Shown here: positions 12,642 to 32,530 of the stretch, piece after piece | Layout: each line of letters opens with the position of its first letter | How positions within the stretch are numbered: the stretch's first letter is position 1 | IMG/VR virus record: IMGVR_UViG_3300037483_000925 | Location: 1 to 64,000 of that record | Source: a virus | Lineage: Duplodnaviria; Caudoviricetes | Length of the DNA: 64,000 nt | Reading direction: 5' to 3' (one strand) | Position numbers and translations under genes: made by a program | The notes under the pieces: model-generated | Database searches by the model: none | Told to the model about the DNA's origin: nothing | The model's input: the letters and a program-made list of their open reading frames with translations, nothing else

Positions 12642-13694
12642 CTACGCCGACGGCGAGGCCGACGGCGATACGCTCGGGCTCAGGCTCGGACTCAGACTCG
12701 GGCTGATGGACGGCGATACCGAGGGGCTGATGCTCGGGCTGATGGACGGCGATACCGAGGGGCTGATGCTCGGGCTGACCGACGGGGATGCGGAGCCACC
12801 CGGATGCCTGGTAATCTGAAGGTTGGTGTTAAGGGTATGGTGGAGACCATTGAAGCTCATCTCCACGGGAATGGGCTTCTCGTCATTGACCGGATTGTCA
12901 CCGGTGGTGTACTGGAGGTTGTTGATCAGCCAAGTGATGGCCAGGCCGGTGCTCCCGGTGATGAACCTGAGCGAGCTGGCCGTCTCGTTCAGGAACTTGT
13001 TGAGCATGGTCATGTCGGTGAAGAAGAAAGTGCCCTTGCCCTCGCACTTGGACCGCCCCCAGGAAATCTGCGGGGCGTACTTGCTCCCCACCACGAAATT
13101 GGCCTCCAGGCCATTGTCCAGGGTGAGGGTGATGGCCGAGCACAGGGCGTTGGCCACGCCGCCCTCGTAGATAGAGGCAGAGAAGGTATCCATCGGGGGA
13201 TTGGCCGAGGCCGAGTTGAAGGTCGAGCCCGCCGGCAGGGCCGCGGTCATGTTCGAGCCGATGAAACTGAGCTTGCCGGTGGCCATGCCGCTGGGCTTGA
13301 TGTCCAGGGACAGCTTGCTGGGGCTGCACCCGCTGAAGCACTCGTACTGGGTGATATCCGCGAACTTGCGCAGGATGCTGAAGCTGCGCTGGGTAACCCC
13401 CTGCCGCAGGACATCCCCGCTCCAGGTGCCGCCCATGAGGGCCTCCAGCATGTCGTCGAAGGCACTGTAGCTCAGCTCGAAGCCCACGTCCCCCTCCACC
13501 TTGTAGGTGCCCAGGCGGACGTCGGTGATGGCCCGGTCGGACCGGAGTTCCTTGCTCTCGAACTTGTCCCTCTTCAGACCCAGCGAGCAATCGGTGTGCC
13601 GGAAAGGGGTCCAGGCGGGATTGTCCGGAGTGGTGCCGTAGGTATCCTCTGCCACGTAATAGAGCCCGTGGTAACCGCCGCTTGCAAAAGGCAT
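12642..13694 (-). CDS. major tail tube protein with C-terminal (SPSX)12 tail
   Basis: YYVAEDTYGTTP...SKELRSDR...VEGDVGFELSY tail-tube pattern; synteny. Confidence 0.88.
   Translation of the reverse strand: MPFASGGYHGLYYVAEDTYGTTPDNPAWTPFRHTDCSLGLKRDKFESKELRSDRAITDVRLGTYKVEGDVGFELSYSAFDDMLEALMGGTWSGDVLRQGVTQRSFSILRKFADITQYECFSGCSPSKLSLDIKPSGMATGKLSFIGSNMTAALPAGSTFNSASANPPMDTFSASIYEGGVANALCSAITLTLDNGLEANFVVGSKYAPQISWGRSKCEGKGTFFFTDMTMLNKFLNETASSLRFITGSTGLAITWLINNLQYTTGDNPVNDEKPIPVEMSFNGLHHTLNTNLQITRHPGGSASPSVSPSISPSVSPSISPSISPSVSPSISPSLSPSLSPSVSPSASPSA
12645..12788 (-). repeat. coding repeat, 12 x Ser-Pro-Ser-X
   Basis: SPSV SPSI ... SPSA SPSA-stop; 12-bp periodicity with mixed Ser codons. 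Confidence 0.95.
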
Positions 13695-15460: not shown

Positions 15461-16027
15461 TCAGCCCCTCTTGATGTCCATGGTGCTGCTGGACCTCAAC
15501 AAACCCCGAAGCCGGTTCGCCACGGCCTTGAACTCGGTCGTGGGCGAAGCCCCAGAGAAATACTCGAACTCAACCACGTCATACTTCTCCCGCTTCACCT
15601 GGCCCCCACGGTCCAGGTTCGGCTCCATGTCCTTGCCGGTGAGTATCAGCCAGGCACCCTCGCACTGGGCATTGATCACCTCGGCGGGAACCTCGCTAAT
15701 GCCGATCCAGTAGCCGTCCCGGTCCAGGACCCCGACCCAGTAGGTCTCGGGCTGGGTCAGGATGTTGATGTAGTTCCCCTCCCCGGCATCGCTCCCGTAC
15801 CTGGGCCAAGCCATGGGGTTGGACCTGTCGGTCTTGAACCCCCTGTACGGGAGGTCGTCCAGGTAGTCGGCCATCTTGACCAGGGCAGCCTTGATGACCT
15901 CGTCTCCGTAAACAGCGGTGTAGACCCGGCCCCTGTCATCACAATGGGTCTTGAAGTTGGCCAGGCTGACGTAGCTGTTGGCCCCGCTCACCACCGCCCC
16001 GGTCTCCACTGTGATTGTTATGGTCAT
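15461..16027 (-). CDS. head-tail adaptor (DnaT-like family)
   Basis: VETGAVVSGANSYVS, NPMAWPR, VKREKYDVVEFEYF motifs; start at 16027. Confidence 0.8.
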   Translation of the reverse strand: MTITITVETGAVVSGANSYVSLANFKTHCDDRGRVYTAVYGDEVIKAALVKMADYLDDLPYRGFKTDRSNPMAWPRYGSDAGEGNYINILTQPETYWVGVLDRDGYWIGISEVPAEVINAQCEGAWLILTGKDMEPNLDRGGQVKREKYDVVEFEYFSGASPTTEFKAVANRLRGLLRSSSTMDIKRG

Positions 16028-16155
16028 TTCTTCATTTTCCCTGTTCCAGCCATGGCTTCCTTGCTTTCCGGCATCCTGCCCATCTTCTGAATGCACTCGG
16101 TGGCCCCGGCCCCATGGTCAGGGGTTTTCATCGATTCGGCTGGCATCTTAGGCAT
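16024..16155 (-). CDS. small hypothetical protein (43 aa)
   Basis: Read manually, MPKMPAESMK...GKMKK; ATGA overlap with the adaptor gene. Confidence 0.4.
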   Translation of the reverse strand: MPKMPAESMKTPDHGAGATECIQKMGRMPESKEAMAGTGKMKK

Positions 16156-17134
16156 GTCCTTCATGTCTTTCATCATTTTCCATCTCCTTCAATTTTCTCA
16201 AGTCATCCTCGGCCCAACCCTTGACTGGCCAGAACTTCTCCACCAGCCAGGAGATTGGATGGACCCTATGCTCAAAGCCGCCATTCAGGAACTTATCCCA
16301 GGTCCGCCTCTTGGTCTCCAACTGGGCACCCCAGGACTGGGGATAGGGAAAGCTGAAATCCTTCCTGGTACGGAACATGTGGGCGTACCAGGTCCCATGG
16401 TACGCCAGCACCCGGCCGCCGCTGAGCCAGGTGGCACAGGCCACCTCGAGCCCCTGGTTGCCCCAGCTGCCCAGGGACTCGTCGCAGAGGGGCAAGGAGA
16501 AATACTTCTCCCTGGTGGCCATGAAGCAGGAACCCTGAAGGCTCATGGTCTCGGTGAACCCGGTCCTCCTAGCCTCCTTGGTCGAATCCCGGTGCTTGTA
16601 TTGCTCAAAATACTGAAAGTGAGGCTGGACATCAAAGCAATAGGACCAGCTCTGGGGATTCCTCTTGCCAATCCAGACCATCTTCCTTTTGATTCTCTCC
16701 CCGCCGCAGGCCTCACATCTCTCCGGCTTCGGCCCCTGGTAGACCTTCTTCCCGCAGCTATGGCACTTCCAATCGAAGGCCCAGAGATTACGCATGATCG
16801 GGACCATGGTCACATCATCCCCAGCCTGGGAGAATGCCTCCAACATCTTTCTGTCAAATCCCTTGTCGAAGGAGCAATGGGCATCACACTTCATCAAGTA
16901 ACGGCCCCGGGCCAGCTTGGCTGCCAGATTAGTGGCCGCCCTCTGGCCCACGGGCTCGGGGACATAGATCACGTTCACCCGGTCATCCTGCGGTATGCCA
17001 GGGTCGGCCCAGGCTCCGTCCAGGGTAGCGATGACTTCGGTATCCGCCTCGATATTCTCCAGGATGTCCTGAATAGTTCTGGCCAGGAACATCTCCTGCC
17101 GGGCGGGGATGAGTATCGACAAATCAGCCATCAA
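16148..17134 (-). CDS. glycosyltransferase family 2
   Basis: LSILIPARQE...VIATLDG...GQRAATNLAAKLARGRYLMKCDAH (GT-A, DxH). Confidence 0.9.
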   Translation of the reverse strand: MMADLSILIPARQEMFLARTIQDILENIEADTEVIATLDGAWADPGIPQDDRVNVIYVPEPVGQRAATNLAAKLARGRYLMKCDAHCSFDKGFDRKMLEAFSQAGDDVTMVPIMRNLWAFDWKCHSCGKKVYQGPKPERCEACGGERIKRKMVWIGKRNPQSWSYCFDVQPHFQYFEQYKHRDSTKEARRTGFTETMSLQGSCFMATREKYFSLPLCDESLGSWGNQGLEVACATWLSGGRVLAYHGTWYAHMFRTRKDFSFPYPQSWGAQLETKRRTWDKFLNGGFEHRVHPISWLVEKFWPVKGWAEDDLRKLKEMENDERHEGHA

Positions 17135-17795
17135 GATACTTCCTCTTCAAGTCGGCAATATTGCCCCAATGCGGCAATGCCGCCGCCCTGTTCCCGGCTC
17201 CAGACAGCGTCCTGGTCCCGGGCCTCATGCCGTTCCCCGTCTTGAAGCTGACGCAGGGCACTGCACAATCAAAGAGATTGAATGAGATTTTGTAATATTC
17301 CACAATCTTGTCCCTGCCGATGATCGGCCGGACCTCACCGTCGAGCCATTCCGGATACCCGGCCAAGAACTCCTTGAAATATCTGACTATGTATTCCCTC
17401 CTGCACACCTGGGCTCCCTCGGACCAGCGCTTCCTGGAATAGCCGTCCCCGTCCCGAAACACGATCCAGACGTTGCCGCACCTATGGATGTCCCCGCCCT
17501 TGGGTTGGAACCTGAAATACTCCTCCGGATACAGGAAGTCAGCCTCGGCGAATGCCACCCACTCGGTCCCGGCGGCCTCGGCCCCGATCTGGATCTGTCT
17601 CCACTCATTCAGGTATGAGTGGCCCACATCCCCGACGCAGATGTTCCTGCCCAAGTCCGTCGGCCTCTGGGTGACGCTGACCACAGGGAGATCCCCGCAT
17701 GATTCGAGCAGGCGGGCCATGATCCTGGCCTCGAACCCGGGTTCCTCCCTATTGCTGCTGTAATAGAGCACAGTCATATTGTCCCTTAGTCCCAT
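17124..17795 (-). CDS. GT-A-like glycosyltransferase (TVLYY type, paralogue of 18852..19502)
   Basis: TVLYYSSN...PVVSVTQRP...AFAEADFLYP acidic motif. Confidence 0.6.
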   Translation of the reverse strand: MGLRDNMTVLYYSSNREEPGFEARIMARLLESCGDLPVVSVTQRPTDLGRNICVGDVGHSYLNEWRQIQIGAEAAGTEWVAFAEADFLYPEEYFRFQPKGGDIHRCGNVWIVFRDGDGYSRKRWSEGAQVCRREYIVRYFKEFLAGYPEWLDGEVRPIIGRDKIVEYYKISFNLFDCAVPCVSFKTGNGMRPGTRTLSGAGNRAAALPHWGNIADLKRKYLDG

Positions 17796-18265
17796 GACGA
17801 TAGATCCCTACTGTTGCTTACCACCGTCGTCCACGGCCTGCAAAACTTCCAGTGATAGATGTACTTGAAATGGGGGTAGACTTCACTGTAGCTGTAGTGG
17901 TCCGTCTCCGAATCATGAAGTACGATGAAATCGGCCTTGTCCGCCAGTCTCAACGCATCCGTCGCCCGGCGCTCCGTAACATGGTCAATGAAGGCCACAT
18001 CCCAATGCCTGCCAAGGTTCACCTTGGCCCAATCGTCAACCAGGAACACCCTGTGGTTCCTGCTCCGGAACCCGTTGGCGAACCTGAAGAACTCCTCCTG
18101 GTCCTCGTAAGTCTCCAGGCGGCGCCCGGACTCAGCACAGAGCCAGTGGAGTAGAGGCGTGCTGAATACCCCTGACCCCAGCTCCAGGACCGGGCCGCTG
18201 GTTATCTGAACCGCCCTGATGAGCGTGGGCATGTGGGTGGTGTAATCCTTCCTGAGAGTCATCAT
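17786..18265 (-). CDS. class I SAM-dependent methyltransferase-like protein
   Basis: VLELGSGVFST motif I, DVAFID, IVLHDS; start at 18265. Confidence 0.7.
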   Translation of the reverse strand: MMTLRKDYTTHMPTLIRAVQITSGPVLELGSGVFSTPLLHWLCAESGRRLETYEDQEEFFRFANGFRSRNHRVFLVDDWAKVNLGRHWDVAFIDHVTERRATDALRLADKADFIVLHDSETDHYSYSEVYPHFKYIYHWKFCRPWTTVVSNSRDLSSWD

Positions 18266-18855
18266 TTCTTTACCCAGAACCAGCTCGGCTTTTCGTCCCC
18301 GATACCGATGACATACCAGGGGGTTATTCCAAAGGCTCTGACATAGGCGTCCACCACCGGCCCCACCTGGCACCTGGAGGACAGGAAATAGTCGTGGCCG
18401 GAGACCACGCCCCCGGACCGGACCTTCCTGTCCCACCCGCATAGGTCCTGGGAGAAATCCTTGAATCCGTGATTGGCATCTATGTGGACGAAATCCAGAC
18501 TACCCTCCTCGAAATCATCCAAGGCCTCCATGGAGGTCTTCCTGAAAATCTCGCACTCGCACCCGACCAGGTTCGCCACGGCCGACCGATAGATGGCATT
18601 ACGCTTCCTCTGGTACATGGGGTCAACGGCCAAATGTTCAGGGGTGGCAAGCCAGGAATCGATGGCAAATACCATGAGCCCCGCCTCACACAACTTCTTG
18701 GAGAACCCGCCCTTGAATACCCCGATCTCCGCCCCCACGGCATAGCCCATGTCCCTGAAGAGCCGGGGCAGCTCATCCCGGGAGTGCCCGGGCAGCAGCC
18801 GGGGCGACTTCCTCCGGGTCAAGTCCTTGCGAGCCAACTCCTCCATGATGGTCAC
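18262..18855 (-). CDS. class I SAM-dependent methyltransferase (Methyltransf_24-like)
   Basis: GAEIGVFKG, LDFVHIDANH, GGVVSGHDY. Confidence 0.85.
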   Translation of the reverse strand: MTIMEELARKDLTRRKSPRLLPGHSRDELPRLFRDMGYAVGAEIGVFKGGFSKKLCEAGLMVFAIDSWLATPEHLAVDPMYQRKRNAIYRSAVANLVGCECEIFRKTSMEALDDFEEGSLDFVHIDANHGFKDFSQDLCGWDRKVRSGGVVSGHDYFLSSRCQVGPVVDAYVRAFGITPWYVIGIGDEKPSWFWVKK

Positions 18856-19502
18856 AGGTATCTCTCCCTCAATTCCCGACCGTTACCCCAGTAGGGAAGC
18901 TCCGGAATGTCCACCCTCTCCGAGTGGCTGTAGTGCCTCATTCCTCGCCCGGTCTTGATGGATACGCAGGGGTTCTCGGTCATGAACGGTTCATAGCTGT
19001 TGAAAAACTTCATCCTCTTCTCTTTGGGAAAGTTCTTCCTGGTCTCATCCCATTCGGGCTCCCCGTTAAGTAGCAGCCAAAGGCGGTCGATGTAGAACTC
19101 CCGATTAACGACCTGAGCCCAGGTACCACCCTCGGGCTTCCTCCAAAAGCAGTCCCGCTTATATCCCATCAGGTAGGTATTCCCATTCCGGTAGCAGGTA
19201 TCATCCCTCTCCGGCTGGAATAGGAAGTAGTCCGGAGGATAGAGGCAATCGGCCTCGGTCGAGATGATGAACCTGGTGTTGGCCGCCTCGCAGCCGATGA
19301 GTATCTGCCGGATCATATTGAACCCGGAAGTGCCGACTTCACCCACACAGATGTTCCTGCCAAAGCCGGTGGGCCTATGGGACACGCTGACAATAGGCAG
19401 GTCACCGCAATTCCCAAGAATGGTATTCTGGATCCTCCGCTCGAATTCCGGGGATTCCTTGTTGCTGGTGTAGTAGAGCACCGTGGCGTCAACGGATCCC
19501 AT
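18852..19502 (-). CDS. GT-A-like glycosyltransferase (TVLYY type, paralogue of 17124..17795)
   Basis: TVLYYTSN...PIVSVSHRP...ISTEADCLYP; start MGSVDA at 19502. Confidence 0.6.
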   Translation of the reverse strand: MGSVDATVLYYTSNKESPEFERRIQNTILGNCGDLPIVSVSHRPTGFGRNICVGEVGTSGFNMIRQILIGCEAANTRFIISTEADCLYPPDYFLFQPERDDTCYRNGNTYLMGYKRDCFWRKPEGGTWAQVVNREFYIDRLWLLLNGEPEWDETRKNFPKEKRMKFFNSYEPFMTENPCVSIKTGRGMRHYSHSERVDIPELPYWGNGRELRERYL

Positions 19503-20280
19503 GGCTCTCCAATATCCCCGCCAGCCCCTTGGTGACCAGAGGGTGGCCCATCTCGTTCCTGCCATGGACGCAGTAGGACATGTTGTCCTCACCGTTGTAC
19601 AAGGGCCGCCTATCAAACGGATGGAAATGGATCACCCTCAGGGGCTTCTCGGCCATAGCGTAGGCCTCGCCAACCAGGCGGCGCCTCGTGGCCAGGTTGT
19701 AGGTTATGTTCAACTTCCTGACCCGGTCCCTGATATGGCCGTACTTGCCCTTCTTGAGGGTTTCCAGTAACATGATCTCCTCATTGACCTTGTACCGGTA
19801 CATCTCCACCTTCAGTAGTTTGAAGATGTCCAGGGACCCGGACCGGAAGAATATGGTCCCTGTGCTCCATCTTTTGTCCCGGCCCCGGTTCAGGGAGGAC
19901 CGGCCATAGTCGGTGACCCCGATCTCGGAAGGGCCGATCCCCACCTCGGCCTCGTCAATGGAGGCGAGCTGGAAGGCATCAAGGTCATGGAACCAGTACA
20001 ATTCGTTATCCTCTATCAATCCCCGCTCAAATAAAGCAATAATGGCGTTGATCTTGCTGGCGGTGGGGGAATGCTCGCACCAGGCATCGTCCCCGATCTC
20101 CAGGGCTTTCACCCCCCTGTACTCGTAGGGGAAATTGGTTACCAGCCAGATATCATCCCTGACCCATCCCAGTCTGATGCTATTGTCTATCTGGACCCTG
20201 GCCAGGATGTCGGCCTCGTTCCCCCAGTCCAGGCCGGTGAACGCCTTCTTGGGGCTGATGTAGATCATCAGGTTCTTCAT
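19489..20280 (-). CDS. nucleotide-diphospho-sugar transferase-like (MKNLMIY type)
   Basis: YWFHDLDAFQ DxD motif, TGTIFF, NITYN, IHFHP; start at 20280. Confidence 0.6.
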   Translation of the reverse strand: MKNLMIYISPKKAFTGLDWGNEADILARVQIDNSIRLGWVRDDIWLVTNFPYEYRGVKALEIGDDAWCEHSPTASKINAIIALFERGLIEDNELYWFHDLDAFQLASIDEAEVGIGPSEIGVTDYGRSSLNRGRDKRWSTGTIFFRSGSLDIFKLLKVEMYRYKVNEEIMLLETLKKGKYGHIRDRVRKLNITYNLATRRRLVGEAYAMAEKPLRVIHFHPFDRRPLYNGEDNMSYCVHGRNEMGHPLVTKGLAGILESHGIR

Positions 20281-21188
20281 ACCCGTCTCACAAATATGTC
20301 CTGGTGACCCAGGTGAACCCACATGGAGTAGCGGTGGTTCCCATCCAGTATCCGGCCAGCGGCATCGACTATGATCGTCCTCTTGAGACCGTTGTCCTTG
20401 ACATCCTGGTACAGGGCCACCTTCCTCTCCACCCACCGGTTGAGGTAATCCTCGGTCCACTTGGCTCGGTATTTCTTCAATATCCGGTAGTAGCCAGTGT
20501 CCTTGTAATTCATACCGGAGTCGAGCTGCCCGTAGAACCGATCCTGGACATGGTTGCTGGAATCCAGGGAATCGACCGCCGCCCTGGCCACGGACCCGGA
20601 CCTAAAGCACAGGCTCCGCAGCTTGCGGGCATGCGGCCCAGCCTGGGGTAGGGCATCGATGAACCCGACCTCCTCCCAGTCCCGAAAGAAGCCCCTGATA
20701 TCGTCTATGTCGGATGAGGGGTGGCATCGGTTGAGAAATTTCTTCTCATCAGTCACGACGATGCAATAGGCGGTCTTGCGCCGGAGCCCGTCCAGGTAGT
20801 CCAGCCAGTCCTCAATCCTAAAATAATAATGGCTGTTGGCCAGAACGGTGTAGTCGGCCACGGGCAGGGAGTCAAGGGAATCCTCCATCCTGGCCTTGAT
20901 GATCCGGTAATTGCCGCCGTTCCTATCCCGCCATTCGATGCCCCGGGCCACGGCCTCGGAGCTGGAATCCACACCCACGGCGTCGAAGCCCCGGTCCTCG
21001 GCTAGCTTGAGAAACAGGCCGGCATTACAGCCCATATCCACCAGGATCAGACCGGAGGCATCCCCAGACAGAAACGGGGCCACGAAATTATTCCACTTGC
21101 CCTCATTCCAGAACGGGGACCCGAGCTCCTGGAAATCACGCTCAGTTTGAGGCACGTCCAGGCACTGGTATGTGGAGTATGCCTTCAT
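20277..21188 (-). CDS. class I SAM methyltransferase fused to a C-terminal ParB/Srx-like domain
   Basis: LVDMGCNAGLF...AVGVD N-terminally; IIVDAAGRILDGNHRY C-terminally; start MKAYST at 21188. Confidence 0.75.
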   Translation of the reverse strand: MKAYSTYQCLDVPQTERDFQELGSPFWNEGKWNNFVAPFLSGDASGLILVDMGCNAGLFLKLAEDRGFDAVGVDSSSEAVARGIEWRDRNGGNYRIIKARMEDSLDSLPVADYTVLANSHYYFRIEDWLDYLDGLRRKTAYCIVVTDEKKFLNRCHPSSDIDDIRGFFRDWEEVGFIDALPQAGPHARKLRSLCFRSGSVARAAVDSLDSSNHVQDRFYGQLDSGMNYKDTGYYRILKKYRAKWTEDYLNRWVERKVALYQDVKDNGLKRTIIVDAAGRILDGNHRYSMWVHLGHQDIFVRRV

Positions 21189-21799
21189 TCCTCCTCCAGG
21201 AAATCGGTCACGAAATGCCACTCGGCATCGGTCGGGACATTGAACAAATTGGCCAAGCACCGGCCCAAGTCATTGGAGGTGCCGTAGACGTGGCCGTGGA
21301 GCTTTAATAAATCAGCGGATAAGACAAAGGGCATATCAATGTTGTGCGAATACCGGTAGAATCTCCCGGTCCTTTCCATATGGGGCTTCGCCGGATCAAC
21401 CGCTCCCCACCAGCCCGCCTCATCCAGGGCCTGGACCGTGCCGCTGGACCATTTCCAATGCGGGGCGCAGAATCCCCTCTCGAACGGCAGGCCGTCCCTG
21501 CCAAATGCCTCCTCGATGGCCGGCATGATCTTCAGCTTCATGGTACCGTAGTCACAATTCCTGAACTCCGCCCCGTGGTGGTCGAAGCCGTGGGGGATGA
21601 TCTGAATCCAGTCTAGATTCTCCTTCACCCTGGCGAGCAGTTCATCCCTGATGAGGTACAGCCCAAAGTCCGCCCTCCTGTCCATCGGCACGGTAAACAG
21701 GGAGACCTTGAACCCGGGATAGCGGTCCTTGAGCGTCAGCAGCAGGTCCAGCCTGCTATTGACGACGCTGAAGTCGTGCAGGTCCAGACTGACCTTCAT
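21185..21799 (-). CDS. polysaccharide deacetylase-like (NodB/CE4 superfamily) protein
   Basis: LDLHDF, IIPHGFDH, GFCAPHW, KLHGH metal-binding pattern. Confidence 0.75.
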   Translation of the reverse strand: MKVSLDLHDFSVVNSRLDLLLTLKDRYPGFKVSLFTVPMDRRADFGLYLIRDELLARVKENLDWIQIIPHGFDHHGAEFRNCDYGTMKLKIMPAIEEAFGRDGLPFERGFCAPHWKWSSGTVQALDEAGWWGAVDPAKPHMERTGRFYRYSHNIDMPFVLSADLLKLHGHVYGTSNDLGRCLANLFNVPTDAEWHFVTDFLEEE

Positions 21800-22470
21800 A
21801 TCCTCTTCCTCATGGCGAACACCCGATGGCGCTTAGGATCGGTCTTTTCCTCGTTAAACCATTTGGCTAGCTTGGCCCTTATCCTTCCCCTCGGCCCGTG
21901 GATCTCGATGGAAACCTGGCCTATCCTTGACACCAGGCTGTCGTCCAGGTCCTTGACTATCCGGTGCTCGGCGCCCTCGCAATCCAACTTGAGGAGATCG
22001 CAATGGCCCGGGCAGTGGTCCCGGAACACCTCGTGGATGGAGATGGACTTGACAACCTGGAAGCTCCCCGGGTCCAGCCCCTCGATCAGGTCCGGGTATG
22101 CCGACGTGGCTCCGGAATTATGGGGATGGACAAAGAGCCTGGTCTCCCCGGGCTCGCCCACGGCCAAGTTCAGGCAATGAATCCGGTCCTTGAATCCGTT
22201 GACCTCCACATTATAGCACAGGACCTCGTAGTTGTAGGCCTCGGGCTCGAATGCCCAGACCTCGGCCCCGGCCCAGGCCGCCAGGATGGAAAAGGCCCCG
22301 ATATTGGCCCCAATATCAACCACCACCTTGGGGTTCTCCGGCAAACGGTAGTAATCCTCCCCGCCCAAAATCTCCTTGATGATCTTCTCGTCATGGTACC
22401 GGTACCGGGTCCGGAACTGGAACCCGAAGAAGCCCGTATCGTCATTCAGCGACCTGTCTACCCGATACAT
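21796..22470 (-). CDS. FkbM family methyltransferase
   Basis: VVDIGANIGAFS, VWAFEP, DLLKLDCEGAE. Confidence 0.92.
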   Translation of the reverse strand: MYRVDRSLNDDTGFFGFQFRTRYRYHDEKIIKEILGGEDYYRLPENPKVVVDIGANIGAFSILAAWAGAEVWAFEPEAYNYEVLCYNVEVNGFKDRIHCLNLAVGEPGETRLFVHPHNSGATSAYPDLIEGLDPGSFQVVKSISIHEVFRDHCPGHCDLLKLDCEGAEHRIVKDLDDSLVSRIGQVSIEIHGPRGRIRAKLAKWFNEEKTDPKRHRVFAMRKRI

Positions 22471-23168
22471 GATATCCCCGCCTCGGCAAATGCCTGCCTC
22501 AATCCCGGATTCATGGCCGCCGAAAACTTGCTCATGAGATAACCGCCCCGCTTCGTAGGATGAAAATGGAGCACTTTAATGGGTTTTTCCGCCTTCCTGA
22601 GATTAGACTCTACCCGGTGCATATTGATGTTATAGGCCACATCCAGGACCTTGTACCGACCGGGGGCGAGTCCTCCTTCCATCATCATCTCCAGGGCCGT
22701 CTCCTCCAGTACCTTCTTCTCATAGATGATTTCCCTCATGGACCCGAAGATGTCAGCGGCGCCTATCCCAAAAAACATGCTGCCGGTATTCAGCTTCCTG
22801 GACCAGCCAAGATCGGTCACCCCCAGGTCGCACATACCCAAGCCCAGGACATCCTTCGTGATGGGGCCGACCTGGAAGGCGTCAAAATCATGGTACCAAT
22901 AGATTCTGCCATCCTCCACCAATCCTCTCCTGAACAGGTCCACGATAACATTGATCTTGCTCATCCTACGGTCGAAAGTGCAGAAATTATCGTCATCCGC
23001 CCTCATGGCCCTAACCCTGCTGTACTCGTAGGGGAAATTGGTCACCAGCATGATATCCCCAGGCTCCCAGCCGAGGGTTAGGCTATTGTCTATCTGGACC
23101 CTGACAAGTTGGCTGTACTCACCCTCGAAGGCCCATCTGGGATTGATGTAGATCATCAGGTTCTTCAT
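22458..23168 (-). CDS. nucleotide-diphospho-sugar transferase-like (MKNLMIY type, paralogue of 19489..20280)
   Basis: YWYHDFDAFQ DxD motif, LNTGSMFF, EETAL, LHFHP. Confidence 0.6.
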   Translation of the reverse strand: MKNLMIYINPRWAFEGEYSQLVRVQIDNSLTLGWEPGDIMLVTNFPYEYSRVRAMRADDDNFCTFDRRMSKINVIVDLFRRGLVEDGRIYWYHDFDAFQVGPITKDVLGLGMCDLGVTDLGWSRKLNTGSMFFGIGAADIFGSMREIIYEKKVLEETALEMMMEGGLAPGRYKVLDVAYNINMHRVESNLRKAEKPIKVLHFHPTKRGGYLMSKFSAAMNPGLRQAFAEAGISCIG

Positions 23169-23782
23169 GTCCTATGCCTCACCACAATCAGGCAATCGTT
23201 CCTACGGCTCGGGGCGGTGAAGTTGATCCTCTCGCAGTCATAGTCCCCGTCCAGGCGTTCCAAAATGTACTCTGGAGTCCTCACATCCTCGATGATGTAG
23301 GTGACCGATTTCCAAAGCAGAGGCATCAGGGTCCGGCAGGCAAATACCTGGTTCCTCTTGAGGTGGCTGGCGTCATCCACCAGGAGGTCGATGTCCGGGC
23401 CGGTCTGGCCAATGAGCATCTCCAAGTCCTCGGCCTTCCTCTCATCCACGACGAATGTCCTGATCCGCTCGGCCTCCAGCATGGACGCTGGCTGAATGTC
23501 GGCCCCGTAGACCAGGGCATTGGAGAAGAAATCCCGCCACATCAGGAGGCTGGCCCCTTTCTGGTAGTATCTCTTCAAGTGTTTGTCATAGATGATTGAT
23601 ACGTGGTCCATGGTCTCGTCATAGCCGATGCCCAGCTCCAGGATCTTCCTAATGGACTCCCGCCGGCTGCTGAACATTTTATAATAGAACGGGGTGTAGC
23701 TATGCACCAGTTGGGGGCACTTGTCGGTCCCGTACTTGTAGGCGATGTCGCAGAGCTCGGTGGTCTGGATGTCGGCCTGCAT
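23165..23782 (-). CDS. sugar O-methyltransferase-like class I SAM enzyme
   Basis: YGTDK...HSYTPFY...ILELGIG...GASLLMWRDFF...VYGADI...IDLLVDDASH; start MQADIQ at 23782. Confidence 0.8.
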   Translation of the reverse strand: MQADIQTTELCDIAYKYGTDKCPQLVHSYTPFYYKMFSSRRESIRKILELGIGYDETMDHVSIIYDKHLKRYYQKGASLLMWRDFFSNALVYGADIQPASMLEAERIRTFVVDERKAEDLEMLIGQTGPDIDLLVDDASHLKRNQVFACRTLMPLLWKSVTYIIEDVRTPEYILERLDGDYDCERINFTAPSRRNDCLIVVRHRT

Positions 23783-24639
23783 CAGCAGTTCCCCCAAGTG
23801 GGCACGGGCGAGAACCTCTCTACCAGCCAGGACAGGGGATGGAGCATGCCCGGATCCCCGCCGTTGGTCCAGTGCCTCGCCGCCCACTCGTTCCCGGCCA
23901 GGGCCTGGGCATCCCCTTTGTGACGCCTGGAGAAGCCCCCTCCCAGGTAGTGGTGCCTGCGTTTGGACAGGTGGGCGTACCAAGTGTTCTTATTGACCTT
24001 GATCTCGCCGCCGCCCAGCCAGTACCTGAGCCCGATCTCCAGCTGGTCCCCGGAGAAGGGGCCGTAGGTCTCCGGCCTGTCGTCCAGGAGGCCCACCTGC
24101 TCAAGGAAATATCTTCGGTGGGCCAGCCAGAACGAACCCTGGAAGGCCATGGTCTCGTCCACGGCGATCCCCCGCCTGGCCCGGTCCCGGCTCTTCCATT
24201 CTCCCACGAACATGCCATATCCGGACTCGGATTCGACCGGGGCCGAGAAATAATGGTAGTCCCGGAAATACCTGGTGATCCTGGCCGGCTCCCAGGAATC
24301 CTCGTCCAGGGAATAGCGCCTGGGGATGATCAGGTGGCTGGGGGCCATGTCCCTGGTCAGGATGAAGTCGAACCCGGGGGCGAAGGCCACATGGGCATCG
24401 ACCTTGGCCACGAACTCCCCCTTGGCCGCCTCCAGGCCAGCATTGATGGCTCCCCTCATACCCCGGTTCCTTTTGAGGACGACGGGTTGGACCCTGGAGT
24501 CCTTGGGTAGGGGGCCGGGGTCATAGCCGTCGATCACCGGGATGACCTCGACCTCGCCAGCGGCGTTGGCCAGCAGGGAGTCAATGGTCCGGTTCAGGTA
24601 GGGCTCCTCGAAGGCCGGTATGATGATGCTGAGCTTCAT
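23782..24639 (-). CDS. glycosyltransferase family 2
   Basis: KLSIIIPAFEE...PVIDG...GMRGAINAG...AKVDAH. Confidence 0.9.
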   Translation of the reverse strand: MKLSIIIPAFEEPYLNRTIDSLLANAAGEVEVIPVIDGYDPGPLPKDSRVQPVVLKRNRGMRGAINAGLEAAKGEFVAKVDAHVAFAPGFDFILTRDMAPSHLIIPRRYSLDEDSWEPARITRYFRDYHYFSAPVESESGYGMFVGEWKSRDRARRGIAVDETMAFQGSFWLAHRRYFLEQVGLLDDRPETYGPFSGDQLEIGLRYWLGGGEIKVNKNTWYAHLSKRRHHYLGGGFSRRHKGDAQALAGNEWAARHWTNGGDPGMLHPLSWLVERFSPVPTWGNC

Positions 24640-24866
24640 TTGGGCCACTCCGTACAGACCAGTTCAATATCCCTGATCTCAGAAATCAAAGGAAAGGCCA
24701 TTAGGATTTTTCCATCTTTAGAATCGTATTTGATTATCTGACCGAAGGAGTCATCAGCGGCAATAATATGCTCATTGATAATCTCTCGTCCCGTAACCCT
24801 GTCAAATACCGTCCATGCCCAAGGATTAGGAATTCTGCCGCTTTCATCTCTCATATCTACTCTCAT
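24636..24866 (-). CDS. hypothetical protein (AT-rich insert in the GT cluster)
   Basis: 76 aa from MRVDMRD, ATGA overlaps on both sides. Confidence 0.5.
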   Translation of the reverse strand: MRVDMRDESGRIPNPWAWTVFDRVTGREIINEHIIAADDSFGQIIKYDSKDGKILMAFPLISEIRDIELVCTEWPK

Positions 24867-25669
24867 AATCCCCACCTTGGCCTGATCACGGCCTCGTAAT
24901 AGTCCCGCCACACTTTCAAACAATATGCCCCGCTGTCCACGGTATTGGCCGGGTTCTCCTTGGTTCCATTGTTATGGGTCCGGGAGAAGGAACGATGCTT
25001 ATGGGCAAACCAAGTATTCTTGTTAAGCACCAGCTTGCCCCCGGCCTGCCAGGTCTTGAAAACCATCTCGTGTGAGTCCTGGGTCAGGGGTCCGTAGCCC
25101 TCGGTCTGGAGCTCCCCGATCACGTCCAGCCACCACTGCCAGGGCATGACCCAACAGGACCCCTGCATGGCCATGGTTTGGTCTATCATCTTATGGGCAT
25201 TGGCCTTGTCTCGGGCAGGCCACCTGACTCCGGAGAACTTCTGAGGTCCGCCCTCGGGACCCTGGATGGCCAGCCTCTCGTAATCGACGTGGGGGTGATC
25301 CTGCATCACCTCCCACCTGACCGGATCCAGGAAGAATCTCCGGGCGGTCATGATCCAATTATGACGGCAGGACTCGACCATGATGCGGTCGAAACCCTGG
25401 GCAAACATGCAGTGCTCATCAGTTCGACAAATAAACTCGCCACGGGCCACGGAAACCCCGGCATTGATAGCAGCCCTCATGCCCCGGTTCCGGCCCAGGT
25501 GGACGTACCGGACCCGGGGGTCCTGCACTAAATCAAACTCTGGCCAGTAGCCATCGAGCACAGCAATGACCTCAAGTCGATCCCCGAGCTCGGAGGTGGC
25601 CAAGATAGAATCAATGGTCCTGGCCAGCAATGGGTCCTTATAACTCGGGATGATGACTGACAGTTTCAT
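24863..25669 (-). CDS. glycosyltransferase family 2
   Basis: KLSVIIPSYKD...AVLDG...GMRAAINAG...CRTDEH; start at 25669. Confidence 0.9.
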   Translation of the reverse strand: MKLSVIIPSYKDPLLARTIDSILATSELGDRLEVIAVLDGYWPEFDLVQDPRVRYVHLGRNRGMRAAINAGVSVARGEFICRTDEHCMFAQGFDRIMVESCRHNWIMTARRFFLDPVRWEVMQDHPHVDYERLAIQGPEGGPQKFSGVRWPARDKANAHKMIDQTMAMQGSCWVMPWQWWLDVIGELQTEGYGPLTQDSHEMVFKTWQAGGKLVLNKNTWFAHKHRSFSRTHNNGTKENPANTVDSGAYCLKVWRDYYEAVIRPRWGL

Positions 25670-27021: not shown

Positions 27022-27033
27022 GATGTGTATCTC

Positions 27034-29169: not shown

Positions 29170-29170
29170 T

Positions 29171-31120: not shown

Positions 31121-31951
31121 TTAGGCCGAAGGGCTCGCGCTCGGGCTGACCGAAGGGCTCAGGCTCGGGCTTTCGCTCGGGCTTATACTTGGTGAAATTG
31201 AGGGGCTCAGGCTTGGGCTCAAACTCGGGCTGGGCGAGGGACTCAAGCTCGGGCTTGGACTTGGGCTTTCGCTTGGGCTTATACTCGGCGATATCGAGGG
31301 ACTCAATGACGGACTAGCCGAGGGCGATGTACTCGGACTTGCGCTTGGACTGAAGCTCGGACTCAGGCTTGGGCTGGGCGATGGGCTCAGGCTTGGCGAG
31401 GCCGAAGGCGATGCACTCGGGCTTATGCTCGGAGAGATCGACGGGCTCAAGCTGGGGCTGGGTGACGGGCTCAGGCTCTGACTCACGCTCTGCGCACTCG
31501 TGGCCGCAGTGGTGATGCTGATGACGCAGGTCTTCTGCGACGCCGTATAGCCCAGGATGGTGGCCTGGGCGATGGTCAGGGTCACAGCCTCGCCATTAAG
31601 CCAGGATGCTGCGTCACCGGATACCACCACTGAGGCCACACCCTCGACAAAGGTCAATGTCGTGGACGGGATGGTTGCGGTCCCGGCAGTGCTGGTATCC
31701 GCCACGGAGACGCCAGTGGCGATGGCCTTGTTGAACCAGGTATGGACCTTCCCGGCAGCGGTCTGGAGCTCTATGAAGACGGTCTTGGTCCAAGCTGCCT
31801 CGGTGGCCACGTGATTGTACAAAGCCGGGGACACCACGAACAGCAGATCCCCCGACAGCGCCTTGGCAAACAGGGCCAGCTGATCCCGACTGGCAGGCTT
31901 CAGGCCCAGGTCCAGGCTGGGAGCGGGGGGCTTTTGCGTTCCTCTTGCCAT
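31121..31951 (-). CDS. capsid decoration-like protein with (SPSX)29 tail
   Basis: Paralogue of 31964..32530 (MARGTQ...VHTWFNKAIA), downstream of the major capsid gene. Confidence 0.75.
   Translation of the reverse strand: MARGTQKPPAPSLDLGLKPASRDQLALFAKALSGDLLFVVSPALYNHVATEAAWTKTVFIELQTAAGKVHTWFNKAIATGVSVADTSTAGTATIPSTTLTFVEGVASVVVSGDAASWLNGEAVTLTIAQATILGYTASQKTCVISITTAATSAQSVSQSLSPSPSPSLSPSISPSISPSASPSASPSLSPSPSPSLSPSFSPSASPSTSPSASPSLSPSISPSISPSESPSPSPSLSPSPSPSLSPSLSPSISPSISPSESPSLSPSVSPSASPSA
31124..31471 (-). repeat. coding repeat, 29 x Ser-Pro-Ser-X
   Basis: Counted from the translation; ends SPSV SPSA SPSA-stop. Confidence 0.95.
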
Positions 31952-31963: not shown

Positions 31964-32530
31964 TTAGGCCGACGGGCTGGCGCTCGGGCTGGCCGAGGGG
32001 CTTTCCGACGGACTCTTGCTCGGACTGGCGCTCGGGCTCAGGCTGGGACTGGCACTCGGGCTCTTGGACGGACTCAGGCTATGGGTGACGACGGTGATCA
32101 CGCCGGTGGAGGCCGCGGTCACGGTATAGCCCAGGATGGTGGCCGAGGCCACGGTTACGGTGACCTTCTCACCGACGAGCCAGGCTGCGGCGTCGCCGGA
32201 TACCACCACAGCAGCAACGCCGTTGACAAAGGTCAGGGTGGTCGAATCCAGGGAAGCCGTACCCGCATCACTGGTATCGCCTATGGACACCCCGGAGGCA
32301 ATGGCCTTGTTGAACCAGGTATGGACCTCGCCTTCGGCGGTCTGCAATTCAACGTAGAATGTCTCGGTCCAGGCGGCGGCCGTGGCCACCAGCACGTCGG
32401 TGGCCGGGTAGATCACCAGGGACATGTCACCGGCCATGGCCTTGGAGTACAGGGTGAGCTGATCCCTCAGCGCGGGCTTGAGCCCAAGATCAATGTCCGG
32501 GCTCGGGGGGGTCTGGGTTCCTCTTGCCAT
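31964..32530 (-). CDS. capsid decoration-like protein with (SPSX)9 tail
   Basis: Immediately after the major capsid gene; paralogue of 31121..31951. Confidence 0.75.
   Translation of the reverse strand: MARGTQTPPSPDIDLGLKPALRDQLTLYSKAMAGDMSLVIYPATDVLVATAAAWTETFYVELQTAEGEVHTWFNKAIASGVSIGDTSDAGTASLDSTTLTFVNGVAAVVVSGDAAAWLVGEKVTVTVASATILGYTVTAASTGVITVVTHSLSPSKSPSASPSLSPSASPSKSPSESPSASPSASPSA
31967..32074 (-). repeat. coding repeat, 9 x Ser-Pro-Ser-X
   Basis: SPSK SPSA SPSL SPSA SPSK SPSE SPSA SPSA SPSA-stop. Confidence 0.95.

What the first reader, a model, noticed from the sequence alone, without database searches (positions are those of the whole stretch)
16148..25669. Candidate phage-encoded virion glycan factory inside the morphogenesis operon
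Seen: 13 tightly coupled enzyme-like genes (3 GT2, 4 other GT-A-like, 5 SAM methyltransferase-like including FkbM and sugar-O-MTase types, 1 CE4 deacetylase-like) plus one small ORF, between head fibres and the head-tail adaptor. They are co-oriented with three structural genes bearing SPSX tails. Established: virion protein glycosylation by a few phage GTs is described in actinophages. Inference: this larger pathway builds a multi-sugar, O-methylated, possibly deacetylated coat on capsid and tail, a phage capsule. No sugar-nucleotide synthesis genes are visible, so host donors would be used.
Basis: partly seen in the sequence, partly recalled or inferred. Interest (0 to 1): 0.9.

Follow-up and report, generated by a model that had tools for sequence, protein, structure and literature searches.

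The report
Mucin-type glycosylation cassette in phage
An uncultured tailed phage carries, inside its virion-assembly operon, 13 soluble sugar-adding and sugar-methylating enzymes, three of them look-alikes of the animal enzymes that start mucin glycosylation. Its tail tube and two head-module proteins end in Ser-Pro-Ser-X repeat tails found only in relatives that have these enzymes, so the virion is probably sugar-coated, though no glycan has been observed.

Summary
Window 16148-25669 (minus strand) holds 14 overlapping genes. They encode 3 Pfam GT2, 2+2 further GT-A-fold glycosyltransferases, 5 SAM methyltransferases, one weakly deacetylase-like protein and one small ORF. They lie between the head genes and the head-tail adaptor of a siphovirus-type IMG/VR contig of 84 kb.

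Profiles of two of the three GT2 enzymes hit polypeptide GalNAc-transferases (GT27) best or among the best in the PDB. All three carry the DxH motif and a degenerate Gal/GalNAc-T motif. All 14 proteins look soluble.

(SPSX)n tails sit on the tail tube and on two proteins next to the capsid gene. Tails and cassette go together. 31 of 37 viral loci with these enzymes have SPSX ORFs, against 1 of 82 without (80 of them same-capsid-lineage controls). Homologous tube and head-module proteins lack the tail wherever the cassette is absent.

The cassette is not a phage invention. It also lies in Patescibacteria (CPR) chromosomes beside giant SPSX surface proteins.

DNA modification is covered by a separate 7-deazaguanine module.

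Verdict: probable virion O-glycosylation, confidence about 0.7, resting on comparative evidence only. It is a new variant of actinophage virion glycosylation. I found no paper on it. This scan has noted the same kind of system on other DNA.

The parts
24863..25669 (-). GT2c: first gene of the cassette; ppGalNAc-T-like GT-A glycosyltransferase (268 aa) with a DxH motif (TDEHC)
   Evidence: Pfam GT2 E 5.5e-15. Profile A6 hits GalNAc-T4, T9, T12 and T1 over nearly full length (E 5e-8 to 1e-4), though two generic GT2 chains score higher. It is 57-75% identical across 28 loci.
24636..24923 (-). Small ORF (95 aa from TTG; 76 aa from the ATG that appears to overlap the GT2c stop as ATGA); function unknown
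   Evidence: ORF list. No Pfam, PHROG or NCBIfam match. No homologue in related loci.
23782..24648 (-). GT2b: ppGalNAc-T-like GT-A glycosyltransferase (288 aa), DxH motif (VDAHV)
   Evidence: Pfam GT2 E 3e-15. Orthologues in 13 loci. Motifs read from the translation.
23165..23782 (-). Sugar O-methyltransferase of the TylE/MycE family (205 aa)
   Evidence: phrog_21658 methyltransferase. Profile A4 against PDB: 3ssm E 8.7e-27 and demethylmacrocin O-MTase 8ia9 E 9e-23.
22458..23168 (-). GT8/Nucleotid_trans-like GT-A glycosyltransferase, paralogue 2 (236 aa), H-D-x-D motif
   Evidence: ESM Atlas fold and feature matches. 46% identical to 19489-20280. 365 metagenomic homologues. Conserved H93, D94, D96.
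21796..22470 (-). FkbM-family SAM methyltransferase (224 aa)
   Evidence: Pfam Methyltransf_21 E 5e-15, weak RfbT match; phrog_8156.
21185..21799 (-). Possible deacetylase of the (beta/alpha)-barrel CE4/DUF2334/NDST kind (204 aa); assignment weak
   Evidence: DUF2334 E 0.008. Invariant D6, H8, D9, H70, H74 in 5 sequences. AF2 pLDDT 64. Foldseek NDST1 E 6e-3, CE4 TM 0.45. VIA best Z 6.3.
20277..21188 (-). Class I SAM methyltransferase (303 aa) with a C-terminal extension
   Evidence: Pfam Methyltransf_23 E 4e-7; Methyltransf_25 and Methyltransf_11 also match.
19489..20280 (-). GT8/Nucleotid_trans-like GT-A glycosyltransferase, paralogue 1 (263 aa)
   Evidence: BLASTP 46% identity to 22458-23168, E 3e-59. 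Member of alignment A1.
18852..19502 (-). GT2-like GT-A glycosyltransferase, paralogue 2 (about 216 aa), E-A-D motif
   Evidence: 45% identical to 17124-17795, E 1e-53. Family present in most related loci.
18262..18855 (-). Methyltransf_24-family SAM methyltransferase (197 aa)
   Evidence: Pfam E 3e-12. Present in most related cassettes.
17786..18265 (-). Small class I SAM methyltransferase-fold protein (about 159 aa); core cassette gene with no Pfam family
   Evidence: Alignment A2 with E-x-G-x-G motif. AF2 pLDDT 95.7. Foldseek TrmR, O-MTases, COMT and WbdD at TM 0.64-0.72.
17124..17795 (-). GT2-like GT-A glycosyltransferase, paralogue 1 (223 aa)
   Evidence: ESM Atlas: nearest clusters are named glycosyltransferase and are mostly viral; TM 0.88 to viral GT2 proteins.
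16148..17134 (-). GT2a: last gene of the cassette; ppGalNAc-T-like GT-A glycosyltransferase (328 aa) with DxH (CDAHC), a Gal/GalNAc-T-like motif and a 4-Cys zinc-ribbon insert
   Evidence: Pfam GT2 E 1.8e-13 plus weak Zn-ribbon matches. Profile A5: the top six PDB hits are polypeptide GalNAc-transferases (1xhb E 8e-9), aligned over the C-terminal motif region. 51-72% identical in 26 loci, with C124, C127 and C140 invariant and C143 nearly so. In at least 13 loci a giant SPSX ORF follows it directly.
12642..13694 (-). Tail tube protein (350 aa) with a C-terminal (SPSX)12 tail encoded at 12645-12788: proposed acceptor
   Evidence: Pfam Phage_tube_2 E 3.5e-42, phrog_290. Tail seen. 12 of the 21 closest homologues (P0392-P0412) carry such tails and none of the 50 more distant ones do.
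31964..32530 (-). Small protein next to the capsid gene (188 aa) with an (SPSX)9 tail encoded at 31967-32074: proposed acceptor, putative head decoration
   Evidence: Translation. Its domain homologues in cassette-less relatives end without a tail. No family or PDB match.
31121..31951 (-). Paralogue of the above (276 aa) with an (SPSX)29 tail encoded at 31124-31471: proposed acceptor
   Evidence: Translation. 66% identical to its paralogue in the globular domain. Tail counted.
32598..33557 (-). Major capsid protein (SU10_MCP family); context and anchor for the control set
   Evidence: phrog_1328 E 8e-48. PF17236 on homologues, 2133 relatives.
15461..16096 (-). Head-tail adaptor Ad1 (DnaT_2); the downstream boundary of the cassette
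   Evidence: phrog_477 E 7e-37, PF20557 E 2e-34.

Best explanation
The 14-gene block is a cytoplasmic, mucin-type protein O-glycosylation cassette expressed with the late virion genes.

Inferred pathway:
- The three DxH GT2 enzymes (GT2c, GT2b, GT2a), which resemble polypeptide GalNAc-transferases, put a first sugar from a host nucleotide sugar, probably a UDP-HexNAc, onto serines of the (Ser-Pro-Ser-X)n tails.
- The two GT2-like and two GT8-like enzymes extend the chain.
- Up to five SAM methyltransferases, among them a TylE/MycE-type and an FkbM-type, O-methylate sugars.
- The barrel protein may N-deacetylate a HexNAc.

The acceptors are the tails of the tail tube and of the two proteins encoded next to the capsid gene. 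The finished virion would carry a dense methylated glycan brush along its tail and probably on its head.

The cassette and its acceptor repeat are shared with Patescibacteria (CPR) chromosomes, where the same enzymes lie beside giant SPSX surface proteins. The phage therefore carries a cellular surface-glycoprotein system grafted onto virion proteins.

Shown here: gene content, enzyme folds and motifs, solubility, operon position, and co-variation of tails with cassette.

Inferred: that the tails are the acceptors, the order of the steps, the sugars used, and the benefit (shielding, adhesion or mimicry of the host surface).
For: Enzymes:
- Profile A5 (GT2a) has polypeptide GalNAc-transferases as its six best PDB hits, aligned over the Gal/GalNAc-T motif region. 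Profile A6 (GT2c) aligns nearly full length to GalNAc-T4, T9, T12 and T1.
- All three GT2 enzymes have DxH and a downstream conserved His.
- The MTp family matches sugar O-methyltransferases MycE/TylE at E 9e-27.
- FkbM and three further SAM-MTase folds are present.
- Four more GT-A enzymes are present.

Cellular location:
- No hydrophobic stretch exceeds a 19-residue Kyte-Doolittle mean of 1.69.
- Genes overlap by 1-14 nt inside the late operon, between the head genes and Ad1.

Acceptors:
- A bona fide tail tube (Phage_tube_2, E 3.5e-42) ends in (SPSX)12, and two head-module proteins end in 9 and 29 units.
- Serine codons are scrambled.

Co-variation:
- 31 of 37 cassette-bearing viral loci hold SPSX ORFs, against 1 of 82 without, 80 of them from the same capsid lineage.
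- In at least 13 loci GT2a is directly followed by a giant SPSX ORF.
- Head-module domain homologues are tail-less in L049, L166, L177, L198 and L209, which show no cassette. They are tailed in L001/L002, which have one.
- Tailed tube homologues with known context (the P0396 contig, L212 and the L023 contig) have a GT cassette between head genes and Ad1, as the window does. Tail-less ones (L214, L215, L216) have none.

Related cassettes add DegT aminotransferase, acetyltransferases and a dehydratase/epimerase, which are typical nucleotide-sugar tailoring enzymes.

Cellular counterpart: 115 relatives of GT2a lie in genome contigs, nearly all Patescibacteria. They carry the same families, with SPSX ORFs in 35 of 80 loci. 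In the closed Woesebacteria chromosome (L078) the flanks are cellular sugar-nucleotide and housekeeping genes.
Against: - No glycan, glycopeptide or enzyme activity has been observed for this system anywhere. All support is comparative.
- The similarity to GT27 is remote (E about 1e-8 with profiles). For GT2c, generic GT2 enzymes score slightly better over the N-terminal half.
- The Gal/GalNAc-T motif is degenerate in GT2b and GT2c.
- The two head-module carriers have no recognisable family, so their place in the capsid rests on gene order only.
- L049, a close relative, has a 96-aa SPSX-tailed ORF but no cassette in the 16.9-kb contig. Tails may therefore exist without a nearby cassette, or the cassette lies elsewhere in that genome.
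- The co-occurrence statistic pools two differently selected, phylogenetically non-independent sets, and loci reach only 10 kb either side of the anchor gene.
- The host is unknown. The phage has 55% G+C, against a median of 41% for the Patescibacteria loci.
Confidence: 0.7

Rival explanations
1. The cassette acts on the host's own SPSX surface glycoproteins rather than on the virion. During infection it would remodel the cell-surface glycan, for example to mask the receptor and so block superinfection or stop progeny being trapped on debris. The virion tails would be unrelated linkers or would bind the host glycan layer.
For: The same enzyme families lie in Patescibacteria chromosomes next to SPSX surface proteins and to cohesin, dockerin and Ig-like surface genes. 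A host with such acceptors is therefore plausible. Phage glycosyltransferases that convert host surface antigens are well known (GtrABC-type; a weak phrog_841 match for GT2b).
Against: - The genes lie in the late structural operon, translationally coupled. They are not in a lysogeny or early module.
- The acceptor repeat appears on the phage's own tube and head-module proteins exactly when the cassette is present.
- The host of this 55% G+C phage is not known to be a CPR bacterium.
- The two targets are not mutually exclusive.
Confidence: 0.12
2. The SPSX tails are unglycosylated, extended polyproline-like spacers or adhesive bristles. The enzyme block makes a different product, such as a free or lipid-linked methylated oligosaccharide or a small-molecule glycoside. 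Under this reading, tails and cassette co-occur only because they travel on the same mobile module.
For: No direct evidence links enzyme to acceptor. L049 has an SPSX ORF without a visible cassette. TylE/MycE-type methyltransferases act on sugars of small molecules.
Against: - The cassette holds no membrane-embedded transferase, flippase or polymerase, and no carrier-lipid enzyme.
- The core enzymes resemble protein-directed GT27 enzymes.
- GT2a stays next to SPSX ORFs across loci only 51-72% identical, and in cellular as well as viral genomes. That is hard to explain by hitch-hiking alone.
Confidence: 0.1
3. The glycosyltransferases and methyltransferases hypermodify phage DNA by glycosylating modified bases, to evade restriction.
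For: Phage-encoded glycosyltransferases that decorate DNA with varied glycans are established (cited in PMC12619734). One PHROG match labels the Methyltransf_24 protein 'DNA methyltransferase' (phrog_2675).
Against: - The 84-kb record holds no thymidylate-synthase-like hydroxymethylase.
- DNA modification is already covered by a separate plus-strand module: QueC, FolE, a radical-SAM QueE-like enzyme and an N6/N4 DNA methylase.
- The cassette lies among virion genes, not replication genes.
- The same cassette occurs in cellular chromosomes beside surface proteins.
- The record is only about 75% complete, so absence is not proof.
Confidence: 0.04

Closest known systems
Virion glycosylation of mycobacteriophages (Che8, Corndog, Myrna; Freeman et al. 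2023, Cell Host Microbe 31:1216). I know it here only from citing papers PMC12619734 and PMC11600133.
   Same: Phage-encoded glycosyltransferases, plus an O-methyltransferase in cluster O phages. Glycans sit at the C-termini of capsid and tail-tube subunits. Here too the tail tube carries a C-terminal acceptor-like tail.
   Different: The enzymes appear unrelated: GT2a has no tblastn match in 50,697 GenBank phage records. The cassette is far larger, with 7 glycosyltransferases and 5 methyltransferases against 2-4 genes. The acceptor is a strict (Ser-Pro-Ser-X)n repeat. The cassette lies inside the structural operon and is shared with Patescibacteria chromosomes. Glycosylation is demonstrated there and only inferred here.
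Eukaryotic mucin-type O-glycosylation started by polypeptide GalNAc-transferases (CAZy GT27; e.g. PDB 1xhb, 5nqa, 6e4r)
   Same: A GT-A catalytic domain with a DxH metal motif, a Gal/GalNAc-T-like motif (W-G-x-x-x-x-E ... W-x-x-G-G ... H-x-F-R) and a third His. These are the best PDB matches for GT2a. The presumed acceptors are Ser- and Pro-rich tandem repeats, as in mucins.
   Different: There is no ricin-type lectin domain and no membrane anchor or secretory pathway. GT2a has a zinc-ribbon insert. Sequence similarity is remote. The sugar and the anomeric outcome are unknown. The enzymes would act in the cytoplasm of an infected bacterium.
Serine-rich repeat glycoproteins of Gram-positive bacteria (Fap1, GspB, PsrP), which are glycosylated in the cytoplasm. 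This rests partly on my own knowledge. PDB 5hea (GalT1) was a hit.
   Same: Soluble enzymes glycosylate long Ser-rich repeats in the cytoplasm before export or assembly. Stepwise elongation uses several GT-A enzymes. A GT2 domain of GalT1 is among the PDB hits.
   Different: The initiating GtfA/GtfB pair (GT-B fold) and the SecA2/Y2 export genes are absent from the block. The repeat differs (SPSX, not SASESASTSASV-like). The carriers are virion proteins.
The same cassette beside SPSX fibre proteins in Patescibacteria (CPR) genomes and their presumed phages. Known to me only from this scan's own notes; I found no paper.
   Same: The same enzyme families (ppGalNAc-T-like GT2, GT2-like, GT8-like, Methyltransf_24, a small MTase, TylE-like). 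The same acceptor repeat. GT2a lies directly upstream of the SPSX gene.
   Different: Here the repeat is not on a giant fibre. It is grafted as short C-terminal tails onto an identifiable tail tube and two small head-module proteins. The cassette is among the largest seen here at 13 enzymes. The phage belongs to an abundant SU10-type capsid lineage whose other sampled members lack both features.

Membership tests
CAZy GT27-like polypeptide GalNAc-transferase catalytic domain (GT2a, GT2b, GT2c) | DxH metal-binding motif in place of DxD | tested here: met
   CDAHC (GT2a), VDAHV (GT2b) and TDEHC (GT2c) in the translations. D84 and H86 are invariant in A5 and A6. They align to FLDAHCE of GalNAc-T1.
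CAZy GT27-like polypeptide GalNAc-transferase catalytic domain (GT2a, GT2b, GT2c) | Gal/GalNAc-T motif and third metal-ligand His in the C-terminal half | tested here: met
   For GT2a, WGNQGLEV..W.SGG....WYAHMFR aligns to WGGENLEISFRIWQCGG....VGHVFR of 1xhb. In GT2b and GT2c the motif is degenerate, but E, W, GG and AH are kept.
CAZy GT27-like polypeptide GalNAc-transferase catalytic domain (GT2a, GT2b, GT2c) | GT27 enzymes are the closest characterised relatives | tested here: inconclusive
   For A5 the top six PDB hits are ppGalNAc-Ts (E 8e-9 to 3e-7). For A6 two generic GT2 chains score higher over the N-terminal half, and GalNAc-T4 is third with the longest alignment. No CAZy or dbCAN classifier was available.
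CAZy GT27-like polypeptide GalNAc-transferase catalytic domain (GT2a, GT2b, GT2c) | C-terminal ricin-type lectin domain and type II membrane anchor | tested here: not met
   The proteins are 268-328 aa with no further Pfam domain and no hydrophobic segment. They are therefore not filed as GT27 members, only as GT27-like.
CAZy GT27-like polypeptide GalNAc-transferase catalytic domain (GT2a, GT2b, GT2c) | Transfers GalNAc from UDP-GalNAc to Ser/Thr of a polypeptide | not testable with these tools
   Needs an enzyme assay.
Actinophage-type virion glycosylation (Freeman et al. 2023) | Acceptor segments at the C-termini of capsid and tail-tube subunits | tested here: inconclusive
   The tail tube has a C-terminal (SPSX)12 tail. 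The major capsid protein itself has none. Tails sit on two adjacent small proteins whose capsid location is unproven.
Actinophage-type virion glycosylation (Freeman et al. 2023) | Homology of the glycosyltransferases to those of Che8, Corndog or Myrna | tested here: not met
   tblastn of GT2a against 50,697 GenBank phage records found no match at E 1e-5. The other six glycosyltransferases were not searched there.
Actinophage-type virion glycosylation (Freeman et al. 2023) | Glycans demonstrated on virion proteins | not testable with these tools
   Needs virions. The phage is an uncultured IMG/VR contig.
Serine-rich-repeat glycoprotein systems (GtfA/GtfB plus accessory Sec) | GtfA/GtfB GT-B initiating pair and SecA2/SecY2 export genes | tested here: not met
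   None of the 14 genes matches these families in Pfam, NCBIfam or PHROGs. All the glycosyltransferases here have the GT-A fold.
CE4 / DUF2334 / NDST-type metal-dependent deacetylase (21185-21799) | (beta/alpha)-barrel fold with an Asp plus His-His metal site | tested here: inconclusive
   DUF2334 E 0.008, below the cut-off. D6, H8, D9, H70 and H74 are invariant, but in only 5 sequences. Model pLDDT is 64. NDST1 scores Z 6.3 and CE4 enzymes Z 5-5.8, values common by chance.
TylE/MycE sugar O-methyltransferases (23165-23782) | Sequence membership of the family's catalytic domain | tested here: met
   Profile A4 against 3ssm E 8.7e-27 and 8ia9 E 9e-23, covering profile positions 5-157. The substrate was not tested.

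The most novel reading that the evidence does not exclude
The phage has captured a complete cellular mucin-type O-glycosylation system, one that ultra-small Patescibacteria use for their giant Ser-Pro-Ser-X surface fibres. It has also grafted that system's acceptor repeat onto its own tail tube and head proteins. The virion would then wear the same methylated glycan coat as a cell surface. This self-made glycan mimicry could hide it from receptors, proteases or defences, or stick it to the cell layer it must cross. It would also mean that GT27-like, protein-directed mucin glycosylation, thought of as a eukaryotic speciality, is widespread in bacteria and their viruses.
Probability: 0.4. Interest if true: 0.88.

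Novelty: new variant of a known kind. Interest (0 to 1): 0.78.

Why it matters
Virion glycosylation has been demonstrated only in a few actinophages, where it blunts antibody recognition. Here an unrelated and much larger enzyme set is paired with a simple, recognisable acceptor code, (Ser-Pro-Ser-X)n. That code can be read straight from sequence, and its gain or loss tracks the enzymes.

This makes several questions directly testable:
- Which proteins a phage glycosylates.
- How a mucin-like brush affects adsorption, stability and escape from defences.
- Whether bacterial and viral relatives of the animal mucin-initiating enzymes really act on proteins.

The pairing of soluble enzymes with a short peptide tag could also serve as a portable system for glyco-engineering proteins or phage particles in bacteria.

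The link to Patescibacteria gives a handle on the surface biology of a large, uncultured part of the bacterial tree.

Tried and rejected
- A viral-contig scan with the single tail-tube protein found no relative.
I dropped it.
- Querying viral contigs with the SPSX tail itself matched more than 594 stretches, but the low-complexity filter kept only 3 loci (L046-L048). One of them has the cassette. This is too small for a reverse test.
- Single-sequence PDB searches for three unknown genes gave nothing. Profiles of the GT8-like family, the CE4-like family and the head-module domain also found no solved relative.
- The CE4-like fold stayed ambiguous after Foldseek and VIA-align.
- PHROGs and Pfam gave nothing for 25759-30220, so 'head fibres' could not be checked.
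- L049 and L213 come from one sample but are only 80% identical where they overlap. They are not one genome, so they give no counter-example.
- Freeman et al. 2023 is not held, and the Jabs preprint text is not held.
- Four literature searches for SPSX tails, mucin-like phage proteins or bacterial and phage GT27 found no description.
- No tRNA was found and no rRNA, so host clues are lacking. G+C argues neither way firmly.
- I considered a complex prediction of enzyme with tail and skipped it as uninformative for enzyme-substrate pairs.

Full report
**What the window is.** The window is the first 64 kb of an 84,046-base IMG/VR virus record, about 75% complete by CheckV. Its minus strand from about 44.4 kb down to 0.4 kb is a siphovirus-type morphogenesis module. 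In order it holds:
- large terminase, 42344-43810;
- portal, 39179-40732;
- MuF;
- scaffold, 33601-34470;
- SU10-type major capsid, 32598-33557;
- two small paralogues, 31964-32530 and 31121-31951;
- four unassigned genes, 25759-30738;
- the enzyme block;
- Ad1 adaptor, 15461-16096, then Hc1, Neck1 and tail terminator;
- a 118-aa gene;
- tail tube, 12642-13694;
- tape measure, 8902-11859.

**The observation.** The block at 16148-25669 holds 14 co-oriented genes whose ends overlap by 1-14 nt, mostly as ATGA (two starts read from the sequence). Pfam names three GT2 enzymes and three methyltransferases: Methyltransf_24, Methyltransf_23 and FkbM.

The four genes without a family are two paralogue pairs of 45-46% identity. 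By ESM Atlas features and predicted structure, one pair is GT2-like. The other is Nucleotid_trans/GT8-like with a conserved H-D-x-D motif. Both families are mostly viral.

A profile of 23165-23782 matches the sugar O-methyltransferases MycE and TylE at E 9e-27. The gene 17786-18265 folds confidently (pLDDT 96) as a small class I SAM methyltransferase.

The 'CE4-like' gene 21185-21799 stays uncertain. Its DUF2334 match is sub-threshold, its model is poor, and its best fold matches reach Z 5-6.3 to the NDST1 deacetylase and CE4 enzymes, with five invariant Asp/His residues.

The three (Ser-Pro-Ser-X)n tails are real: 12, 9 and 29 units. Their serine codons are mixed. Only 'head fibres' and the capsid location of two carriers could not be verified.

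**What the core enzymes resemble.** GT2a (16148-17134) and GT2c (24863-25669) are the most conserved genes of the block, 51-75% identical across 26-28 other loci.
- A profile of GT2a has polypeptide GalNAc-transferases (CAZy GT27) as its six best hits in the PDB. The alignment covers the acceptor-side C-terminal half, including the Gal/GalNAc-T motif and the third metal-binding His.
- GT2c aligns nearly full length to GalNAc-T4, T9, T12 and T1, although two generic GT2 chains score a little higher.
- All three enzymes have DxH in place of DxD.
- They lack the lectin domain and the membrane anchor, and GT2a has an invariant four-Cys zinc-ribbon insert. I therefore call them GT27-like, not members.
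- None of the 14 proteins has a transmembrane-grade hydrophobic stretch, which fits work in the cytoplasm on proteins that assemble there.

**Do tails and enzymes go together?** I tested this in four ways.

(a) Loci chosen by the enzymes. I fetched 41 IMG/VR loci through the GT8-like family, whose members are only 32-58% identical to the window's protein. Almost all carry the same families: GT2a, GT2c, GT2-like, Methyltransf_24 and the small MTase. After two near-duplicates were removed, 31 of the 37 loci with ppGalNAc-T-like genes hold ORFs with three or more SPSX units on the same strand. The six without are fragments of 5.5-12 kb. In at least 13 loci GT2a is directly followed by a giant ORF of 800-1500 aa made largely of SPSX.

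(b) Controls. I fetched 80 IMG/VR loci through a capsid protein 55-82% identical to the window's, about 0.87 Mb in all. None has a ppGalNAc-T-like gene, and only one (L049) has an SPSX ORF. Pooled with set (a), Fisher's p is 2e-21. The sets are differently chosen, their members are related, and each locus reaches only 10 kb either side.

(c) The head-module domain. Its homologues end without a tail in L049 (two copies), L166, L177, L198 and L209, none of which shows a cassette. Two of three copies carry SPSA tails in L001/L002, where a GT/MT cassette follows, extended by DegT, acetyltransferases and a hexapeptide transferase.

(d) Tail-tube homologues. Twelve of the 21 closest end in SPSX-type tails, and none of the 50 more distant do. 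Where upstream context exists, tailed tubes (the P0396 contig, L212, the L023 contig and the window) have a GT cassette between head genes and Ad1. Tail-less ones (L214, L215, L216) go from head genes to Ad1 with no cassette.

**Where the cassette comes from.** GT2a has no match in 50,697 GenBank phage records. It does have 115 relatives of 53-69% identity in species-representative genomes. Almost all are Patescibacteria (Woesebacteria, Levybacteria, Daviesbacteria, WWE3, Saccharibacteria, Parcubacteria), and some lie in closed chromosomes of about 0.9 Mb. Rows titled 'uncultured Gammaproteobacteria' are, I suspect, placeholder labels; I did not check this.

The same families sit together there, and 35 of 80 loci hold SPSX ORFs, with up to 370 units in one ORF. 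In the Woesebacteria chromosome the flanks are cellular: a CapD/FnlA-type dehydratase, UDP-GlcNAc 2-epimerase, a carbamoyltransferase and a ComM-like ATPase. In a Parcubacteria contig the SPSX gene is followed by surface Ig-like, dockerin and cohesin proteins.

On a FastTree of 108 GT2a sequences the window falls in a supported group of mostly viral rows. Viral and genomic labels need at least 8-10 switches. This means either repeated exchange or mis-binned phage contigs.

The family has 212 representatives at E 1e-30 or better among 1.8 billion cluster representatives.

The cassette's G+C (0.574) equals that of the flanking virion genes (0.572), so it is not a recent arrival. The genome's 55% G+C sits at the top of the Patescibacteria range, whose median is 41%, so the host remains open.

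**Rival readings.**
- DNA glycosylation is unlikely. There is no hydroxymethylase-type gene. A separate plus-strand module of QueC, FolE, a radical-SAM enzyme and a DNA methylase points to 7-deazaguanine and methyl modification instead.
- A lipid-linked polysaccharide is unlikely without any membrane protein.
- Remodelling of host SPSX surface proteins remains possible and is not exclusive of the main reading.
- The tails could be bare spacers, and L049's lone SPSX ORF is the one observation that leans that way.

**Comparison with what is known.** Mycobacteriophages glycosylate the C-termini of capsid and tail-tube subunits with their own glycosyltransferases, and cluster O phages add an O-methyltransferase. 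I know this from citing papers, because the primary paper is not held.

The present system works like that one but differs in four ways. Its enzymes are apparently unrelated. It is several times larger. It uses a strict repeat as the presumed acceptor. It is shared with cellular genomes.

Four literature searches found no description of SPSX tails, or of GT27-like enzymes in bacteria or phages.

This scan's own earlier notes, which I read after reaching the GT27 and Patescibacteria reading, describe the same kind of cassette-plus-repeat pairing in other CPR genomes and phage contigs. They agree with this report but are not independent evidence.

**Verdict.** The best explanation is cytoplasmic mucin-type O-glycosylation and O-methylation of SPSX tails on the tail tube, and probably on head proteins, using host nucleotide sugars. 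No Epimerase or NTP_transferase family gene is in the record. Confidence is about 0.7, because nothing is shown biochemically.

Noticed in passing
window 54526-60847 (+ strand): A separate DNA-modification module: N6/N4 DNA methylase (54526-55269), a radical-SAM QueE-like enzyme (57086-57835), QueC (59244-59927) and GTP cyclohydrolase I (59927-60847). It suggests 7-deazaguanine-modified DNA.
   Followed up: partly
window 16148-17134, residues about 120-145: The GT2a family carries a four-Cys zinc-ribbon insert inside the GT-A domain. C124, C127 and C140 are invariant and C143 nearly so across 27 sequences. The solved GalNAc-transferases show no counterpart in the printed alignments. It could be an acceptor-binding element.
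   Followed up: partly
window 29171-30220; L073, L083, L090, L101, L123: The C-terminal 130 or so residues of the unassigned 349-aa protein resemble ORFs of about 200 aa near the cassette in five Patescibacteria loci (E 3e-12 to 8e-6). This is a further shared component of unknown role.
   Followed up: partly
L049:12878-13168: A close relative (capsid 82% identical) has tail-less head-module paralogues and no cassette before Ad1. It does have a 96-aa ORF with 15 SPSX units directly upstream of Ad1. The contig is only 16.9 kb, so a cassette elsewhere cannot be excluded.
   Followed up: partly
contig of P0396 and L212:1-7315: Relatives with SPSX-tailed tubes carry much smaller cassettes at the same position. 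One is GT2, Methyltransf_24, a 242-aa protein and GT2 just before Ad1. This hints at a minimal four-gene core.
   Followed up: no
window 35011-36810: The MuF-like gene (36022-36810) and the next ORF (35011-36012) were flagged by first-stage notes as one frame broken by a single TGA. I did not examine this.
   Followed up: no
window 13698-14054: A 118-aa gene lies between the tail terminator and the tube. It has no NCBIfam match. One relative (the P0396 contig) has a 115-aa gene in the same place; I did not compare the two sequences. The first-stage suggestion of a SpeD-like decarboxylase was not tested further.
   Followed up: partly
L001:7448-8392 and window 44519-45154: A GIY-YIG-type homing-endonuclease gene (Pfam LEM-3_GIY-YIG) lies between the tailed head-module genes and the cassette in L001. 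The ORF next to the window's terminase region looks similar by eye only and was not tested.
   Followed up: no
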